Position numbers: made by a program. From Pocillopora damicornis (taxonomy: Eukaryota), in assembly GCF_003704095.1 (NCBI RefSeq), contig NW_020846723.1:124001-188000 (forward strand): DNA of 64,000 nucleotides, written 5' to 3'. Below, piece by piece: positions 55,001 to 64,000 of this stretch; within the stretch, counting starts at the first letter, position 1, and each line of letters opens with the position of its first letter.

Positions 55001-58000
55001 CACAAATGTGTAATCACTTCAATAATTGTTTTCATAGATTGACAAACATTAGAAATAAAGCTGTCCTCTCTGGAATGTGGTCACTCAGGAATGTTACTGA
55101 CAAGCTCAAAGCAGGGTATTTTGCCATATAAGAACCCAAAAGAATCCTTTCAAGGATTTTTTCCATCACTTCACCCATGCCCTTATGGTCTTGAATAGAT
55201 ATTATTTTAATCATGAATGTTCTCAGAGCAGAAATATCCTACTTAAATTTCAGTGATGGATTAATATTATGGTAGTGTACAGAGCCATACTTGACTTAAC
55301 AGGTAGGTGAGTTCTGCACACAAGCCAAATCAATTCAGCAAATTAAATATGTATTACCTAAGTTTTTTCTAAATGAGACAAAAAGTAGCCATCCAATGTA
55401 ATTATTTCTCAAAAATTGCTTTATTGAGAACATTAACAGGTACACTGACAACAGTGTGTACTGGTTCATGGATCTGAACAGGTTAAATTTACCTTGTGAA
55501 AATATTCATCACCCTTAATGTATACAATTTACAATACAACCAAATTGCCTGGAAAAATGGAAAACAGTGCAAACACAGAAGAGGAAGGTGTACAGAAGAC
55601 TTCAAAAATCACTTCTTCTCCATTCAAGGAATTAAAAAGATATCACACATTACAGAGCATCATTACCATCAGTATGTGAGCAATTATAAAATGTCATTCT
55701 CCACTGATCTCCACTTTATATTTGGTCCAGTCACCACCTTCAGTGTGAAACCAAGCTGTAATAGGAGATAAACAAACATCCAAGGTCACTTCATTTCTTT
55801 ACTTCCCTTTGCTGCACACATCTTTATTATTGATGTAGACTGACAGTAACGTTAAATCATGTTTTATGGACTCCAAATTGTTATTTAATTAAGATTAACC
55901 AAGTTCATGTAGTTAAAAGAAAATGAAAGTGTAGTTGCACGCTATAAAAAGGAAATGTGACATAGGGAGAGTACGGTTTATTTGTTTAGTAGTTTTGATT
56001 CTGTAGAGTTAATTGGAAGAAAAGTATTGATTTCTTGTCTTTGATGTGATAATGAAGCAATCTAGCCTTCCATACCATCTATTTAAAATATTTAATTCTT
56101 TGTCTTGCTCAGTGAATGCATTATTTCATAAATTGTCCTGCACAAGTTTCCCAATGGCCAATTCCATTCTACCAAAATTCAAATTGTATTTTTCTTTTAA
56201 GGTTGTTATCAAGATATCAACCTCAATTTTTCAGCTTCTTTTCTGTGATTTCTTTAATTGCTGCCTACCTAAAGCATCCCTCTTTTCCTTGTATTTCATT
56301 CACAGGAGTATTTATTTCATTTGATTGAGGACATCCACTTTTAATTGATCTTTTAAGTCACATGCCATGTATTTTTTTTGCATCCTAAAGAATTTTCGTG
56401 GGCAAGGGACACAGAAGACAGATATAACGAAAAAGGTAGAAAATAGAAAAGTGTGTCATTTCATTTCCGAAATTTTGACTAAATCAAACATCTCATTTAT
56501 CAAAAAGTTAGATTAATATACCTTTTTTCTTGTACTCGTTGTAATATTTTCTGTAGTCATTTACTTCTTTTCTGCAGTATTGTTTGGCATTGACTTCCTC
56601 TCTTCTGTAACATTCCTTGACTCTTTCTTGGTATATCTTCACGGTTTCCAACTCAATAAGTCTTTCTAAAGCCCAACGCTCTCGTGCATTATGAAATGCC
56701 ACAGGATCGCTGCGGTCGATTTCATCAAATGTTGGAGATTTCATCCTCTCATCAAACCTCGTCATGTACTTCTCAGACATCTTAAAATCTTTGCTGAAAT
56801 ATAAGAAAATCCATCAAAAATACAGCAGGAAGAATAAACTACATAAATTACATGTGTATCAACGATTAAAAAAAGATTATTTGTCGCAGTAGAGCAGCGA
56901 ATGAGATTTGCAAAGGACCATGCCAGAAAAGGAATTATGATACTGAGAACTCAAGGTGGTTTTGGATGTTTCAGGCTATTATAGATATTCAGAGCTAAAT
57001 AGGATAATTACGAGGTATTATAGATCCTTCTTAAGCCTAAAAGTTAACTCTCACCTCCACGTGGGATGAGAAAAACACAAGTCTGCCACCTTTTTTCAGC
57101 AAAACCTCTATCAACAAACACTCAGGATTCAAGATGGCTGATTGCGATGGAATAGAAAGCCATTTACGTCATGTAAGAGCAAGTCTAGTATCACCATTGT
57201 GTACTTCCGCAGATATCGTGGACTCACAAAATTAATCAGGGTACCCCTCTTGGTACCCCCTCCGATTTGCGCAAAGACAAAGCTAATGTATCACGTGGTT
57301 TCGTCCTCTTTCCCTGTGCTCGTAGAAAATGGTGGGTGCCTCTCTGAGAAATGTGTTTAAAATCAGTCGGTTTAACTGTAATTTTATGACCATCTAGTCC
57401 AGACTGGTGCTTAGATCTTTCAAAAAGTGTTATTAGCTTATGGAAACTGACATATTTTTTTTACTTCTTCCGAAAATGTACGTTTCTTGTAAGGTTTTAT
57501 ATCGTAGGTGGCGTGTGGTTAACAAGCTTGAATGGACGAGTTATGAGCGTAGTACTCTAAAGTAGATCTTCGACTGTACGAAACCCCCATAATGTAACAT
57601 GGAAAGTAAATCAGTCCCTAAATCGAGAGTTGATGCTTTTTCTTTTTTTTTCCAAATATCGTTGCCTACCTTTATCCATCTCACTCCCGTCAGGTCGTAT
57701 CCCCCACCATCTTTCTTGTCGATTGGTTCCTATGCTATTTTCCTCTTCTTCAAATCGAAGGTTTCCCACCTAGTGACATTTAGAAATAAACTTCTAGTGA
57801 CCGATTTTATGATTAAGGCTAAGTTGGGCTGTTGACATTAGAAAGGGAACAATTTTGAATAATTTTATCGTATATTCGTGAACATTTCACCTCGAACGAA
57901 GTTGACTTTGGGGCAAAATCTTACCAGCCGAAATGAGGGAATTCCTTGTACATATTTCTTGAAGATATGGTTGTAGGTACACTGTAGGGTCTTGTTTGAA

Positions 58001-61000: not shown

Positions 61001-64000
61001 ACCCAAATGCACCCTTAGTGAAGGCCCACTCCACTTTGAGTGAGGACTTACCTTGTGGGATTGACATCTGAACATAGGAAAGGAGAGCAGAATTTAATTT
61101 AAGCCTTTCTCGTGTTTGTTCAAAATCTTGTGAAATCTTTCTCAAACTTAATAAACAAATAACTTTTGTGTGTGTTATTTGCACCTTAACAATGCTGTAA
61201 CTCTCTCTTTGGCTTACCTTTAGGGTACTTTCCCTCACTACGGTGAAGTGAATGAAGACTATGTCATGGTCAAGGGATGTGTTGTAGGCAAAGTGAAACG
61301 TGTCCTTACTCTGCGTAAGGTAAGACAAGGATCTTGTAGCAACAAGCACCTCAATATTTGCGTTTCAGTGTGTTGAAGTAGGTATTGGCAATGTTAAAGT
61401 AGTATGTAAGTGTTAGTTGTACAGAGGTCTAATATTTTTCAGAATTGGAGGTGAACATGAATTAAAGAGCTCCAGAAGCCGGTGTATTAATTCTAGCAAT
61501 GACCGTTTTGACATGTCATTCGTTCACAGTCATTGCTTGTCCAAACAAACCGTGCTGCCTTGGAGAAGATCCAACTTAAGTTCATTGATACATCGTCCAA
61601 GTTTGGCCATGGACGCTTCCAGCATCCTGCCGAGAAGAGAGCGTTCATGGGTCTCCTCAAAAAAGACCGGGAGAGGGAGCTTACTGCTGGTGCAGAGTAA
61701 ATTTGTTTACGAGTTTAATAAAGTTTGGTTTGAATCTATCAGAATCTAATTATTTTAAATGTGCCTCCTAAAACCTTTCCCACCCATGAGTGACTAAGAG
61801 AGAATTTCTCCTCACAATATCAATATCAATATCAAGCATAGGAGTGATGAGAATAAAGTAAAGTATCACTTGGGGATTATTCGTTGATCCAATACCAAAT
61901 TCCTTGAATTTACATTATAGCAATCGTGTGGCAGACAGTAAGGAGAATTACTAATGAGATCTTTGGAGTTGAAGGGTTAATATATAAAGGAAACTCTCGC
62001 ATTTCGACTATCAGAATGCTATCAACAAGCATTGATCCTCTTTCTCGCCCCTTCCCCCTCTTCCCCCCCGGCATTACCACCATCTCGAGCTGACTACATA
62101 AGTAAAAATAGACATCTGATAATTTACTTCATTTATTCGATACAAGGAGAAACAACAAGTGACGTTGTAAACGAGAGATCTTCGATTACCGTTCAAAACT
62201 GAACTTAATCCTAGGAAAACCAAAGTTGTTATTCAAAAGGACTTGAAGATTGCACAAATTAATATTCATTCAATTTATTTAACATTAAGCCACCATCGTT
62301 GAGAGGATCTTCTATCAATCACATTTAGGACGAAGTAATGAGACCGGGATATTCTGCGACGAAGAGCTTAAAAGGAAAAATCCTCAAAAATACGCCTAGT
62401 GTCCTACGGTTTAAAACTAATTTGGGCTGGAGCAAGTTGAATGTTAGAAGTTGGTGTCTTAATCTAAGTTAACTTTTTTTCCAAAACAAGACAGTAGCAA
62501 CTCCATTTTGTCTATTTACTCTTAATGAAACCTTGCAATTAAGCGAGGAAGAAACATCTTGATAAGTTTCCGAACCTATCAAGAAGTTCCGTACCCATTA
62601 ACTCCTCTTAGGTTAGAAACGTTCGGCACGGCTACATAATAAAGAAAAGAGATCTTGGTCTTCGTTGTTCAGTGGAACATAGCCATATCCTTTCGTGGGT
62701 TGGTAATGGATGTCTAGTCTCGTTTGTGTTTGTAGTCAACTTTGTGAGAGCCAGTAACGTGGATGGTGCGGTTCTAAACAACCTGGACAACGGGCAGTTG
62801 AAAGTAAGGCTTTGTATATCCAGGAAGCGGAACTGTTTGGTAATAGTTAGTTGAGGCAAAGATCACTCCACTCTTATAGTTCCAAATAAGTTTAAAATAA
62901 AAAAGTACCGCCGATCCAAATGCATCTCGAGTTTTGATAGAGAGGAAACAATTTAGAATCTAAAAGTCTGTCGCAGAATATCTTTCATGACTTGTCTCAC
63001 TTCTCTCATTGTCCAGCAGTAAAGAACTGGGTTTAAAGAAGAGTTAAAATGTAGAAAAGTAGTTATACAGATACAAACCAAAAGAAGAATTGGGTCGAGT
63101 CCTCTGGAGGCCACCAGTGTGATTATAACAATCCCGGGCAGGTAAAAAGCAATCAATGATAACTGTATCCACACTGCGCTGGATACTGTTTTCCTATATC
63201 GTGCTATGTTCAGTGGCTCAGGTCGGTTTGCTTGTCTTTGGTGAATATTTCCGTGTACTTGCCCCTGATGTTGCCGGAGTTTTCGATAAATTTTGAGGTA
63301 ACAGAAAGTTGAGACTGTAATACTCAGTAAAACAAGAAAGGAACCATAAAATAACGCAGTTCTGTAGTTGAACAACTCCATAATAGCACCTCCAGATCCT
63401 ATGAACCAAAGTGAGATGGCAGTACCTTGAGCACGCCTTGAGGTAACAACTTGTCTGTATCTCAATCCCAGTGACAGGGCGAGAAGTCTGTCCACACCTA
63501 TTGCAGTCATTGTGAGCAAAGATACTGAACATAACGTTTGACCTGAAAGAAGCACAGCGCTAATAACTTGGCAACAAAGATTCCAGTTTTTAAATTCAAT
63601 CGTGAATAAAAATATAACATAAAGTGGACCGACAGCAATCCCTACACATAAATCCGTAAGGATCAGAGAGCGTAATAGAATCTTGGAGGGTGGATGGAGG
63701 AACGACACTTTTCGAAGGGCTGCAAGTATTAGAATATTTCCAAATGTTGACGAGATGGCAAGAAAAATGCTAATGATTATGAGAAATCGCAGAATGAGGA
63801 TTCCTCCTACAGGCGAAGAACAAAACATTTCAGTTGTTAGGTTTTCAGATCTGTCGTCAATCAGCATATTTTTAAACAATGCAGAGATATGATACGGAGT
63901 TCAAGTATTCTGCTTGAAATATTAAGCTCCTATTCAGGATGAAAAAGGCTTTTACTTAACCGAGATCGAAATTCAAAACATCTGACCCTTGGAGAGCCGT

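What the first reader, a model, noticed from the sequence alone, without database searches (positions are those of the whole stretch)
55694..61700. NDUFB10 and RPL3 share a compact bidirectional promoter, the same head-to-head pair as human NDUFB10-RPL3L
Seen: the NDUFB10 non-coding first exon (~57055-57140, minus) and the RPL3 TOP start (57305, plus) are about 200 bp apart. From recall, human NDUFB10 lies immediately divergent to RPL3L (16p13.3), the striated-muscle RPL3 paralogue linked to mitochondrial function. Inference: the pair predates the cnidarian-bilaterian split, RPL3L inherited the ancestral neighbourhood, and a complex I subunit and uL3 have been co-promoted for a very long time.
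Basis: partly seen in the sequence, partly recalled or inferred. Interest (0 to 1): 0.72.

Follow-up and report, generated by a model that had tools for sequence, protein, structure and literature searches.

The report
Coral NDUFB10 and RPL3 head-to-head
In this coral DNA a mitochondrial complex I gene (NDUFB10) and a ribosomal protein gene (RPL3) sit back to back on one short promoter region, and the same two genes also lie next to each other in another coral, close together in scorpions and side by side in humans, so the pairing looks very old.

Summary
The two genes are real and lie head to head. On the minus strand is a short-form NDUFB10 of 106 aa. It matches Pfam PF10249 at 39.6 bits against a cut-off of 22.2. 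On the plus strand is a seven-exon RPL3/uL3 of 406 codons, essentially identical to Stylophora pistillata RPL3. The two start codons are 548 nt apart. Between them lie a pyrimidine (TOP-like) tract 24 nt upstream of the RPL3 ATG, a local CpG-rich island, two of the window's seven CACGTG sites, and one ETS-like and one CRE-like motif. The NDUFB10 non-coding first exon is plausible (good donor, no ATG) but unproven, so the "about 200 bp" between start sites is an estimate.

The evolutionary claim gained independent support. In Oculina patagonica the two genes carry consecutive locus tags (ACROYT_G037636 and G037637). In the scorpion Centruroides sculpturatus both sit on one 263,131-bp scaffold with accessions two apart. 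Papers give the human gene order as MSRB1, RPL3L, NDUFB10, RPS2.

Several things stayed unchecked. Orientation and spacing outside corals were not seen. Sea anemones, Hydra, Trichoplax, sponges, echinoderms and hemichordates could not be tested. Continuous co-promotion is doubtful, because mammalian RPL3L is restricted to muscle.

My reading is an old conserved gene pair of a known kind. It is moderately interesting.

The parts
55694..55755 (-). NDUFB10 last coding exon (19 codons plus a split codon, stop TGA at 55696-55694). An AATAAA on the minus strand begins at 55425.
   Evidence: Translation. tblastn of the Oculina RefSeq NDUFB10-like protein P0220 and of P0006 covers 55756-55703 at 81-83% identity. 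polyA signal.
56522..56793 (-). NDUFB10 main coding exon. 13 nt of 5'UTR, ATG at 56780-56778, then 86 codons plus 1 base. Acceptor AG at 56795-56794, donor GT at 56521-56520.
   Evidence: Translation P0001. Pfam PF10249 E=8.6e-10, 39.6 bits against a cut-off of 22.2. 21 of 24 PDB hits at E<=1 are NDUFB10/PDSW/NIDM chains. tblastn.
57055..57140 (-). Putative NDUFB10 non-coding exon 1. The 3' end is set by the donor GGAG|GTGAGA. The 5' end is not determined.
   Evidence: Sequence reading. 0 ATG in these 86 nt, while all 4 upstream ATGs lie in the putative intron. No transcript evidence. An alternative donor-like site lies at 57227.
57141..57304 (.). Core of the shared promoter region. ETS-like ACTTCCG at 57203, CRE-like TGACGTAA (minus strand, from 57171), a direct repeat GGTACCCC at 57240 and 57252, and an E-box CACGTG at 57292-57297. 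A second E-box lies at 57058-57063 inside the putative exon 1, and AAGATGGC at 57131.
   Evidence: Motif counts. 7 CACGTG sites in 64 kb, 2 of them here. TGACGTAA occurs 1 time in the window, here. ACTTCCG 5 times in the window, 1 here. CpG observed/expected is 0.54-1.15 in the 300-bp bins from 56501 to 58300, against 0-0.39 in the five bins before. Binding by any factor was not tested.
57305..57331 (+). RPL3 exon 1. Putative TOP/TCT-type start (C at 57305 within the pyrimidine tract 57304-57315), a 24-nt leader, ATG at 57329-57331, then a GT donor.
   Evidence: Of the 3 ATG|GT sites between 56781 and 58229, only this one follows a pyrimidine tract. The start site itself was not mapped.
58230..58422 (+). 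RPL3 exon 2
   Evidence: PF00297 E=6e-26, profile positions 2-65. Stylophora RPL3 P0268 residues 2-67.
58784..58952 (+). RPL3 exon 3
   Evidence: PF00297 E=3.1e-24, profile positions 68-121. tblastn.
59426..59561 (+). RPL3 exon 4
   Evidence: PF00297 E=3.2e-12, profile positions 124-167. tblastn.
60376..60828 (+). RPL3 exon 5 (151 codons)
   Evidence: PF00297 E=3.9e-61. 100% identity to P0012, whose cluster holds RPL3 of Stylophora, Acropora, Pocillopora, Porites, Montipora and Orbicella.
61224..61319 (+). RPL3 exon 6
   Evidence: PF00297 E=1.2e-11. tblastn.
61530..61700 (+). RPL3 exon 7 with stop TAA at 61698-61700. AATAAA at 61717.
   Evidence: PF00297 at 18.7 bits, below the 22-bit cut-off when scored alone. 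P0268 residues 350-406 at 98%. polyA signal.

Best explanation
This is a scleractinian coral locus, probably Stylophora or a close relative. The gene for the complex I accessory subunit NDUFB10 (short 106-aa form) and the gene for cytosolic ribosomal protein uL3/RPL3 are transcribed away from each other. Both start from one nucleosome-sized, CpG-rich region that probably acts as a bidirectional housekeeping promoter. RPL3 most likely starts at the pyrimidine tract at 57305. NDUFB10 most likely starts 80-250 bp away on the other strand and splices out a 5'UTR intron.

Shown: the gene identities, the exon structure, the orientation and the 548-nt spacing of the start codons. Inferred: the start sites, that regulatory sites (E-box, ETS-like, CRE-like) are shared, and co-expression.

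The linkage itself is old. It most likely dates to before the cnidarian-bilaterian split. In vertebrates it survives as NDUFB10 next to RPL3L, where the shared regulation has apparently been given up.
For: Gene identities:
- P0001 hits PF10249 NDUFB10 above the cut-off.
- 21 of 24 PDB hits are NDUFB10/PDSW/NIDM chains. Both cysteines of the C-x10-C pair align to the plant subunit.
- 8 of 8 candidates in the 5.8-billion-protein search scored E<=0.001, and 7 of the 8 carry PF10249.
- All 6 RPL3 exon peptides hit PF00297 in consecutive profile order, 5 of them above the cut-off.
- Stylophora RPL3 residues 2-406 map onto the six coding exons.

Promoter region:
- Start codons are 548 nt apart and divergent.
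- There is a CpG observed/expected peak across 56501-58300.
- 2 of the window's 7 CACGTG sites and its only TGACGTAA lie here.
- The pyrimidine tract lies 24 nt before the RPL3 ATG.

Age of the linkage:
- Oculina patagonica: KAL9956192.1 (ACROYT_G037636, NDUFB10-like) and KAL9956193.1 (ACROYT_G037637, RPL3) lie on one 33,484,490-bp contig.
- Centruroides sculpturatus: XP_023240060.1 (NDUFB10-like) and XP_023240058.1 (RPL3-like) are both on a 263,131-bp scaffold.
- C. vittatus: both are on a 6,393,122-bp scaffold.
- Human order: HS3ST6, MSRB1, RPL3L, NDUFB10, RPS2 (passage of PMC7170856) and the phrase 'RPL3L-NDUFB10-RPS2 locus' (passage of preprint 10.64898/2026.06.23.733628).
Against: - No transcript, CAGE or chromatin data were available. 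Both start sites and NDUFB10 exon 1 are predictions, and a second donor-like site at 57227 gives an alternative exon 1.
- Each motif is short and occurs once or twice. No other coral promoter could be aligned, so motif conservation is untested.
It was not read from coordinates, and orientation and spacing there are unknown.
- In C. vittatus the two accessions are 129 apart, although its RPL3 is 401/403 identical to that of C. sculpturatus. So either accession order is not always positional, or the genes are not immediate neighbours there.
- The two corals are one lineage and the two scorpions another. That makes three independent lineages in all, not five.
- From memory only, the fly and nematode orthologues are not neighbours, so the pair has been lost in some lineages.
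- Mammalian Rpl3l is restricted to muscle, so a shared promoter is not what keeps the pair together in mammals.
Confidence: 0.72

Rival explanations
1. The linkage is ancestral but only passively retained. The two genes have separate, abutting core promoters, and nothing selects for their being together. They simply have not yet been separated in slowly rearranging lineages.
For: - In mammals RPL3L is specific to striated muscle while its neighbour is a general complex I subunit (passages; the housekeeping status is recalled). The pair therefore persists there without co-regulation.
- The core elements differ. There is a TOP-like tract on the RPL3 side and none visible on the NDUFB10 side.
- No co-expression data were seen.
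Against: - A very short 5'-5' spacing is what Irimia et al. 2012 report as enriched among conserved ancient pairs. In a passage of PMC3514665, 54.8% of such pairs are 5'-5', and spacing under 1 kb is twice as frequent as in controls.
- With 548 nt between start codons, almost any breakpoint would damage one promoter. That is itself a constraint.
Confidence: 0.2
2. The adjacency arose independently (chance convergence) in corals, scorpions and vertebrates, so it says nothing about the cnidarian-bilaterian ancestor.
For: - Only three independent lineages were seen, and most phyla were not tested.
- Outside this window, orientation and exact neighbourhood are unknown.
- NDUFB10 also appears next to other ribosomal protein genes. 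RPS2 is its other neighbour in humans. One 252-aa open reading frame, P0141, fuses a uL14-like half to an NDUFB10-like half.
- Such cases could reflect a general tendency of housekeeping genes to pair up.
Against: - With about 20,000 genes, a given pair is adjacent by chance at about 1 in 10,000 per lineage.
- Two genes falling on one 263-kb scaffold of a genome of several hundred Mb is a chance of about 3 in 10,000.
- The scorpion test was made after the hypothesis was stated, so it is not a post hoc pick.
Confidence: 0.06
3. The 106-aa gene is not the functional complex I subunit but a truncated or diverged copy. The argument would be that bilaterian NDUFB10 is about 150-176 aa.
For: - Sea urchin (151 aa), starfish (150 aa), scorpion (158 aa) and mammalian (169-176 aa) proteins are longer.
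- The Pfam match starts at profile position 25 of 126.
Against: - The solved plant, yeast and fungal subunits are 92-107 aa and are the best PDB matches.
- Other non-bilaterian animals also have short forms: Oculina 104 aa, Hydra 127 aa, Trichoplax 124 aa, Ephydatia 96 aa.
- tblastn found only one such locus in the window.
- Exon 1 has stop codons in the frame that would join the ATG, read by eye. No N-terminal extension can therefore be added from it.
Confidence: 0.02

Closest known systems
Human RPL3L-NDUFB10-RPS2 locus at 16p13.3
   Same: It has the same two gene families as immediate neighbours (gene order in a passage of PMC7170856; locus phrase in a passage of preprint 10.64898/2026.06.23.733628).
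   Different: - The human partner is the muscle-restricted paralogue RPL3L, which arose in early vertebrates (passage of PMC10287911), not the general RPL3.
- The human orientation (divergent) and spacing (a few kb) are recalled, not checked.
- Human NDUFB10 is the long form of 171-172 aa (PDB chains).
- RPS2 flanks the human gene, whereas no RPS2 was seen in this window.
Conserved ancient microsyntenic pairs (CAMPs) of Irimia et al. 2012, coregulated class
   Same: Two unrelated genes kept adjacent across distant animal phyla, 5'-5' oriented, with a very short intergenic region (passages of PMC3514665).
   Different: - Neither gene is named in the main text of that paper. There were 0 occurrences of 'ribosomal', 'NADH', 'Nduf' and 'Rpl'.
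HSPD1-HSPE1 (HSP60/HSP10) bidirectional pair
   Same: A head-to-head pair with less than 1 kb between the genes, involving a mitochondrial function. It is the textbook case of a deeply conserved shared promoter (passage of PMC3514665; also in Table 1 of PMC2871058).
   Different: The two chaperonins work in one complex and are strongly co-expressed in humans (r = 0.81). NDUFB10 and uL3 belong to different machines, and in mammals the RPL3L partner has a different expression pattern.
GABP/ETS-driven bidirectional promoters of vertebrates
   Same: A short CpG-rich region between divergent housekeeping genes, with an ETS-like core near its centre (ACTTCCG at 57203).
   Different: - I saw only the search listing and the start of the abstract of PMC2077898.
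- One 7-mer match, which occurs 5 times in the window, is weak evidence.
- Binding in a cnidarian was not tested.

Membership tests
NDUFB10 / PDSW / NIDM (Pfam PF10249) | Sequence match to the family profile above the curated cut-off | tested here: met
   The exon peptide P0001 scores 39.6 bits against a cut-off of 22.2, E=8.6e-10, over profile positions 25-100 of 126.
NDUFB10 / PDSW / NIDM (Pfam PF10249) | Similarity to subunits seen in solved complex I structures, including the conserved cysteine pair of the C-terminal helices | tested here: met
   21 of 24 PDB sequences at E<=1 are NDUFB10/PDSW/NIDM. One more is another complex I subunit and 2 are unrelated at E=0.81. Both cysteines (C-x10-C) align with those of the plant subunit 7ar7_p.
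NDUFB10 / PDSW / NIDM (Pfam PF10249) | N-terminal extension with a second cysteine pair, as in bilaterian long forms | tested here: not met
   The coral protein is 106 aa and has no room for the extension. This is a feature of the bilaterian long form (150-176 aa), not of the family as a whole. The plant and fungal subunits of 92-107 aa also lack it.
NDUFB10 / PDSW / NIDM (Pfam PF10249) | Physical presence in mitochondrial complex I | not testable with these tools
   Needs proteomics or a structure of coral complex I.
Ribosomal protein uL3 (Pfam PF00297), cytosolic RPL3 | Full-length match to the family and to named RPL3 proteins | tested here: met
   The 6 exon peptides hit PF00297 at consecutive profile positions 2-369. 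Five are above the 22-bit cut-off, and the last scores 18.7 bits alone. Stylophora RPL3 P0268 residues 2-406 map onto the exons. 406 codons by coordinate arithmetic.
TOP/TCT-type ribosomal protein gene promoter | Transcription starts at a C followed by an uninterrupted pyrimidine tract, with a short leader | tested here: inconclusive
   A 12-nt pyrimidine tract at 57304-57315 lies 24 nt before the ATG. The start site itself is not mapped. The definition is recalled.
Bidirectional promoter (divergent pair with start sites less than 1 kb apart) | Opposite strands, start sites under 1 kb apart, one intergenic segment | tested here: inconclusive
   The start codons are divergent and 548 nt apart, which makes a start-site distance under 1 kb very likely. 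Start sites are not mapped. The criterion is taken from the abstract start of PMC2077898.
Bidirectional promoter (divergent pair with start sites less than 1 kb apart) | Shared cis elements that drive both genes | not testable with these tools
   Needs dual-reporter mutagenesis or co-expression data.
Conserved ancient microsyntenic pair | Orthologues adjacent in several distant animal lineages | tested here: inconclusive
   Seen in 3 lineages: Scleractinia (this window and Oculina), Scorpiones and humans. NDUFB10 proteins of Hydra, Trichoplax, Ephydatia, four echinoids (Strongylocentrotus, two Lytechinus, Diadema) and two starfish were found, but their RPL3 records were not. RPL3 of Actinia, Nematostella, Exaiptasia, Dendronephthya, Saccoglossus and Ptychodera was found without a named NDUFB10. 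No lineage was shown to lack the pair.

The most novel reading that the evidence does not exclude
NDUFB10 and uL3 form a pan-eumetazoan, head-to-head regulatory unit more than 600 million years old (the age is recalled). It ties synthesis of the cytosolic ribosome to assembly of respiratory complex I through one shared growth-responsive promoter (E-box plus ETS/CRE sites). The vertebrate muscle paralogue RPL3L was born at this mitochondria-coupled locus, while the general RPL3 is the copy that left. On this reading the reported RPL3/RPL3L effect on ribosome-mitochondria contact and ATP levels would echo an ancient genomic coupling.
Probability: 0.1. Interest if true: 0.75.

Novelty: new member of a known kind. 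Interest (0 to 1): 0.5.

Why it matters
Deeply conserved pairs of unrelated genes are rare, and each one is a natural experiment in what holds genes together. This pair joins a ribosomal protein gene to a respiratory-chain gene. Balancing those two programmes is a standing question in growth control.

It also gives a concrete evolutionary reading of the vertebrate RPL3/RPL3L pair. RPL3L, the specialised muscle copy, would sit at the ancestral locus. That bears on how the paralogues were partitioned after duplication.

If a survey confirms the pair widely, the 275-bp coral region is a compact candidate for a dual-output housekeeping promoter for cnidarian transgenesis. If it is confined to a few lineages, it is just one more ordinary bidirectional promoter.

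Tried and rejected
1. Rfam scan of 50000-64000 at E<=0.1 for snoRNAs in the RPL3 introns, such as human RPL3 hosts (recalled). It gave 0 matches.

2. Looking for the pair in print.
- NDUFB10 with RPL3L gave 16 papers, 15 of them listed. I read passages of four, and they concern human or dog locus lists only.
- A six-term search (NDUFB10, RPL3, synteny, bidirectional, head-to-head, microsynteny; at least 3 terms) gave 240 papers. None of the 25 listed holds NDUFB10.
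- RPL3L with promoter-orientation terms gave 913 papers holding at least 2 terms. None of the 10 listed holds RPL3L.
- NDUFB10 with promoter or microsynteny terms gave 242 papers. None of the 12 listed holds NDUFB10.
- The main texts of Irimia 2012 and Davila-Lopez 2010 do not name either gene.
- I did not ask for supplements, which are closed. The pair lists of those two papers may contain this pair.

3. Extending the accession and locus-tag test to more phyla. For every lineage beyond corals, scorpions and humans only one of the two proteins came back with a name. Nothing can be said for or against those lineages.

4. An N-terminal coding extension of NDUFB10 from the putative exon 1. I rejected it because the frame that would join the ATG has several stop codons and no ATG (read; ATG count).

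5. Wider synteny with human 16p13.3. The other genes recognised in the window are a GKRP-like gene, a RINT1 exon, MRP-S24 and a rhodopsin-type receptor. None is among the human neighbours listed.

6. An ohnologue status for RPL3/RPL3L. Searches and passages call it only an old DNA-mediated duplicate that arose in early vertebrates. No paper I read says it came from a whole-genome duplication.

I did not use it because it cannot bear on animal synteny.

Full report
WHAT IS THERE

The stretch 55694-61700 is intron-bearing animal DNA of about 37-40% G+C.

On the minus strand an exon runs from 56793 down to 56522. It carries an ATG at 56780-56778 followed by 86 codons. A GT donor follows. An acceptor at 55757-55756 opens a last exon that ends with TGA at 55696-55694.

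On the plus strand an ATG at 57329-57331 is followed at once by a GT donor. Six further exons follow: 58230-58422, 58784-58952, 59426-59561, 60376-60828, 61224-61319 and 61530-61700. They have canonical splice sites and consistent phases, and they add up to 406 codons.

GENE IDENTITIES

The 86-residue exon peptide matches Pfam NDUFB10 (PF10249) at 39.6 bits against a cut-off of 22.2. Against all PDB chains, 21 of the 24 sequences at E<=1 are NDUFB10/PDSW/NIDM subunits of solved complex I structures. One more is another complex I subunit, and two are unrelated at E=0.81. The best matches are the 93-107-aa plant subunits, and both cysteines of the C-x10-C pair align.

The word-indexed search of 5.8 billion proteins gave 8 hits from 8 candidates, 7 of them carrying PF10249. 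Two of the relatives read straight across the exon junction that I inferred: the unnamed 104-aa P0006 and the Oculina patagonica GenBank protein P0009. So does the Oculina RefSeq protein P0220. Both P0006 and P0220 align to both coding exons by tblastn.

A full HMMER scan of 1.84 billion representatives with P0006 gave 91 proteins at E<=0.001. Those I could name are NDUFB10 of Hydra, Trichoplax, Ephydatia and sea urchin.

The coral protein is the short form. The bilaterian proteins seen here are longer: 150-158 aa in sea urchin, starfish and scorpion, and 169-176 aa in mammals.

The six RPL3 exon peptides hit PF00297 at consecutive profile positions 2-369. Stylophora pistillata RPL3 (P0268, 406 aa) maps onto them from residue 2 to 406. 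Nearly all its mismatches fall where the alignments run a few residues into introns. The window therefore most likely comes from Stylophora or a very close relative. This is an inference.

THE PROMOTER REGION

The two start codons face away from each other with 548 nt between them.

A 12-nt pyrimidine tract (57304-57315, C at 57305) lies 24 nt before the RPL3 ATG. The window has 77 comparable tracts on its two strands, so this placement is roughly a 2% event by my arithmetic. Of the three ATG|GT sites upstream of exon 2, it is the only one preceded by such a tract.

On the NDUFB10 side, a strong donor (GGAG|GTGAGA) ends a possible non-coding exon at 57055, and an acceptor precedes 56793. The 86 nt upstream of the donor contain no ATG, whereas the 261-nt putative intron contains all four upstream ATGs of the unspliced leader.

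The exon's 5' end is a guess, however. A second donor-like site at 57227 would put the first exon still closer to RPL3. So "about 200 bp apart" is reasonable but unproven.

CpG observed/expected rises to 0.54-1.15 in the six 300-bp bins from 56501 to 58300. It is 0-0.39 in the five bins before and 0-0.44 in the ten bins after. This is the pattern expected for one unmethylated promoter island between methylated gene bodies, which is an inference.

The region holds the following motifs:
- 2 of the window's 7 CACGTG sites, one of them 8 nt before the pyrimidine tract;
- the window's only TGACGTAA;
- one of its 5 ACTTCCG;
- one of its 3 AAGATGGC;
- two of its 3 GGTACCCC.

These fit a growth-responsive housekeeping promoter, but they are single short matches. 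I could not align another coral's promoter to test conservation.

IS THE LINKAGE OLD?

No eukaryotic genome collection was available, so I used an indirect test. Annotated proteins carry locus tags, accession numbers and the length of their contig.

Oculina patagonica belongs to a different coral family, and its NDUFB10 is about 80% identical to the window's. Its NDUFB10-like protein is KAL9956192.1, locus tag ACROYT_G037636. Its RPL3 is KAL9956193.1, locus tag ACROYT_G037637. Both are on a contig of 33,484,490 bp. In RefSeq the same genes are XP_078347381/382 and XP_078347375/377. Consecutive tags mean neighbouring genes in that annotation.

In the scorpion Centruroides sculpturatus, the NDUFB10-like protein XP_023240060.1 and the RPL3-like protein XP_023240058.1 are each recorded on a single contig of 263,131 bp. 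They are almost certainly on the same scaffold and probably adjacent.

In C. vittatus both are on a contig of 6,393,122 bp, but their accessions are 129 apart. Its RPL3 is 401/403 identical to that of C. sculpturatus, so these are orthologues. Either accession order is not positional in that annotation, or the genes are linked but not adjacent there.

For humans, a passage of PMC7170856 lists HS3ST6, MSRB1, RPL3L, NDUFB10, RPS2, RNF151 in that order. A passage of preprint 10.64898/2026.06.23.733628 speaks of the RPL3L-NDUFB10-RPS2 locus. A dog copy-number region also contains both genes. No call showed it.

The linkage is thus seen in three independent lineages: Scleractinia, Scorpiones and Vertebrata. 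For a given pair, chance adjacency is about 1 in 10,000 per lineage. The scorpion check was made after the hypothesis was stated. I therefore take ancestral linkage as the best reading.

No lineage was shown to lack the pair. For most phyla I obtained only one of the two proteins with a name. From memory only, the fly and nematode orthologues are not neighbours.

"RPL3L inherited the ancestral neighbourhood" follows if the linkage is ancestral, because Rpl3l arose in early vertebrates (passage of PMC10287911) and is an old DNA-mediated duplicate (passages of PMC4219774). I found no paper that calls the two ohnologues.

"Co-promoted for a very long time" goes beyond the evidence. In mammals Rpl3l is expressed only in skeletal and cardiac myocytes (passages), unlike a general complex I subunit. 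Whatever keeps the pair together there, it is not a shared housekeeping promoter. Passive retention with abutting promoters remains a serious rival at about 0.2.

COMPARISON WITH WHAT IS KNOWN

This is the kind of object that Irimia et al. 2012 call a conserved ancient microsyntenic pair of the coregulated class. Such pairs are 5'-5' oriented with a very short spacer, and HSPD1-HSPE1 is the model case (passages).

Neither that paper's main text nor that of Davila-Lopez et al. 2010 names NDUFB10 or RPL3. Four full-text searches found no listed paper that discusses the pair as a conserved or bidirectional unit.

I therefore file it as a new member of a known kind. It could prove to be already known.

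VERDICT

The non-coding exon and the exact start-site distance remain predictions.
Ancient linkage is likely; continuous co-promotion is not shown.
- Interest is moderate, at 0.5. The finding is a tidy and testable example with a link to the RPL3/RPL3L-mitochondria literature, but it is not a new principle.

Noticed in passing
window 51270-51563 (+): An exon matching mitochondrial ribosomal protein S24 (PF14955, E=3.5e-25) lies about 4 kb beyond the 3' end of NDUFB10. That makes a second nuclear gene for a mitochondrial protein in the same neighbourhood.
   Followed up: no
protein P0141 (unnamed JGI record, 252 aa, on a 1065-bp contig): One open reading frame joins a uL14/RPL23-like N-terminal half (identified by eye, from recall; no search was run on that half) to an NDUFB10-like C-terminal half that resembles the Hydra protein. 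It may be a read-through or polycistronic transcript of two neighbouring genes in a hydrozoan-like animal, or an assembly chimera. Either way it is another case of NDUFB10 next to a ribosomal protein gene, as with RPS2 in humans.
   Followed up: partly
window 55694-56793 (-), compared with proteins: NDUFB10 comes in two sizes. The short form is 92-127 aa in the coral, Oculina, Hydra, Trichoplax, a sponge, plants and fungi. The long form is 150-176 aa in sea urchins, starfish, a scorpion, flies and mammals, and it has an extra N-terminal part carrying a second cysteine pair. The extension looks like a bilaterian addition.
   Followed up: partly
Oculina patagonica records KAL9956192.1 (P0009) and XP_078347381.1 (P0220): The GenBank model of the Oculina NDUFB10-like gene has an unrelated 60-residue N-terminus. 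The RefSeq model of the same locus is named only 'uncharacterized protein'. This small gene seems often missed or mis-modelled in cnidarian annotations, which is why so few named cnidarian NDUFB10 records came back.
   Followed up: partly
window 55001-62000: CpG is strongly depleted inside both gene bodies and in the flank (observed/expected 0-0.44) but not in 56501-58300. This is consistent with gene-body methylation around an unmethylated promoter.
   Followed up: no
window 53645-54844 (+): A 400-codon open frame encodes a putative secreted protein with four repeats of a cysteine- and tryptophan-rich module. The repeats are separated by proline/threonine-rich linkers. It has no Pfam match at E<=0.01. 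It lies tail to tail with NDUFB10.
   Followed up: no
window 20168-22515 (+); 28167-28415 (-); 35700-49571 (-); 62956-63900 (-): Other genes in the window are a glucokinase-regulatory-protein-like gene in two large exons, a RINT1/TIP1 exon and a rhodopsin-type receptor. There is also a long coiled-coil gene with a 526-codon exon that has no Pfam match. None matches the human neighbours of RPL3L listed.
   Followed up: no
window 23798-23817 and 34493-34514: Two short runs of N.
   Followed up: no
window 57333-58229 and other RPL3 introns: No Rfam family, snoRNAs included, matched anywhere in 50000-64000 at E<=0.1. I recall that human RPL3 hosts several intronic snoRNAs.
   Followed up: partly
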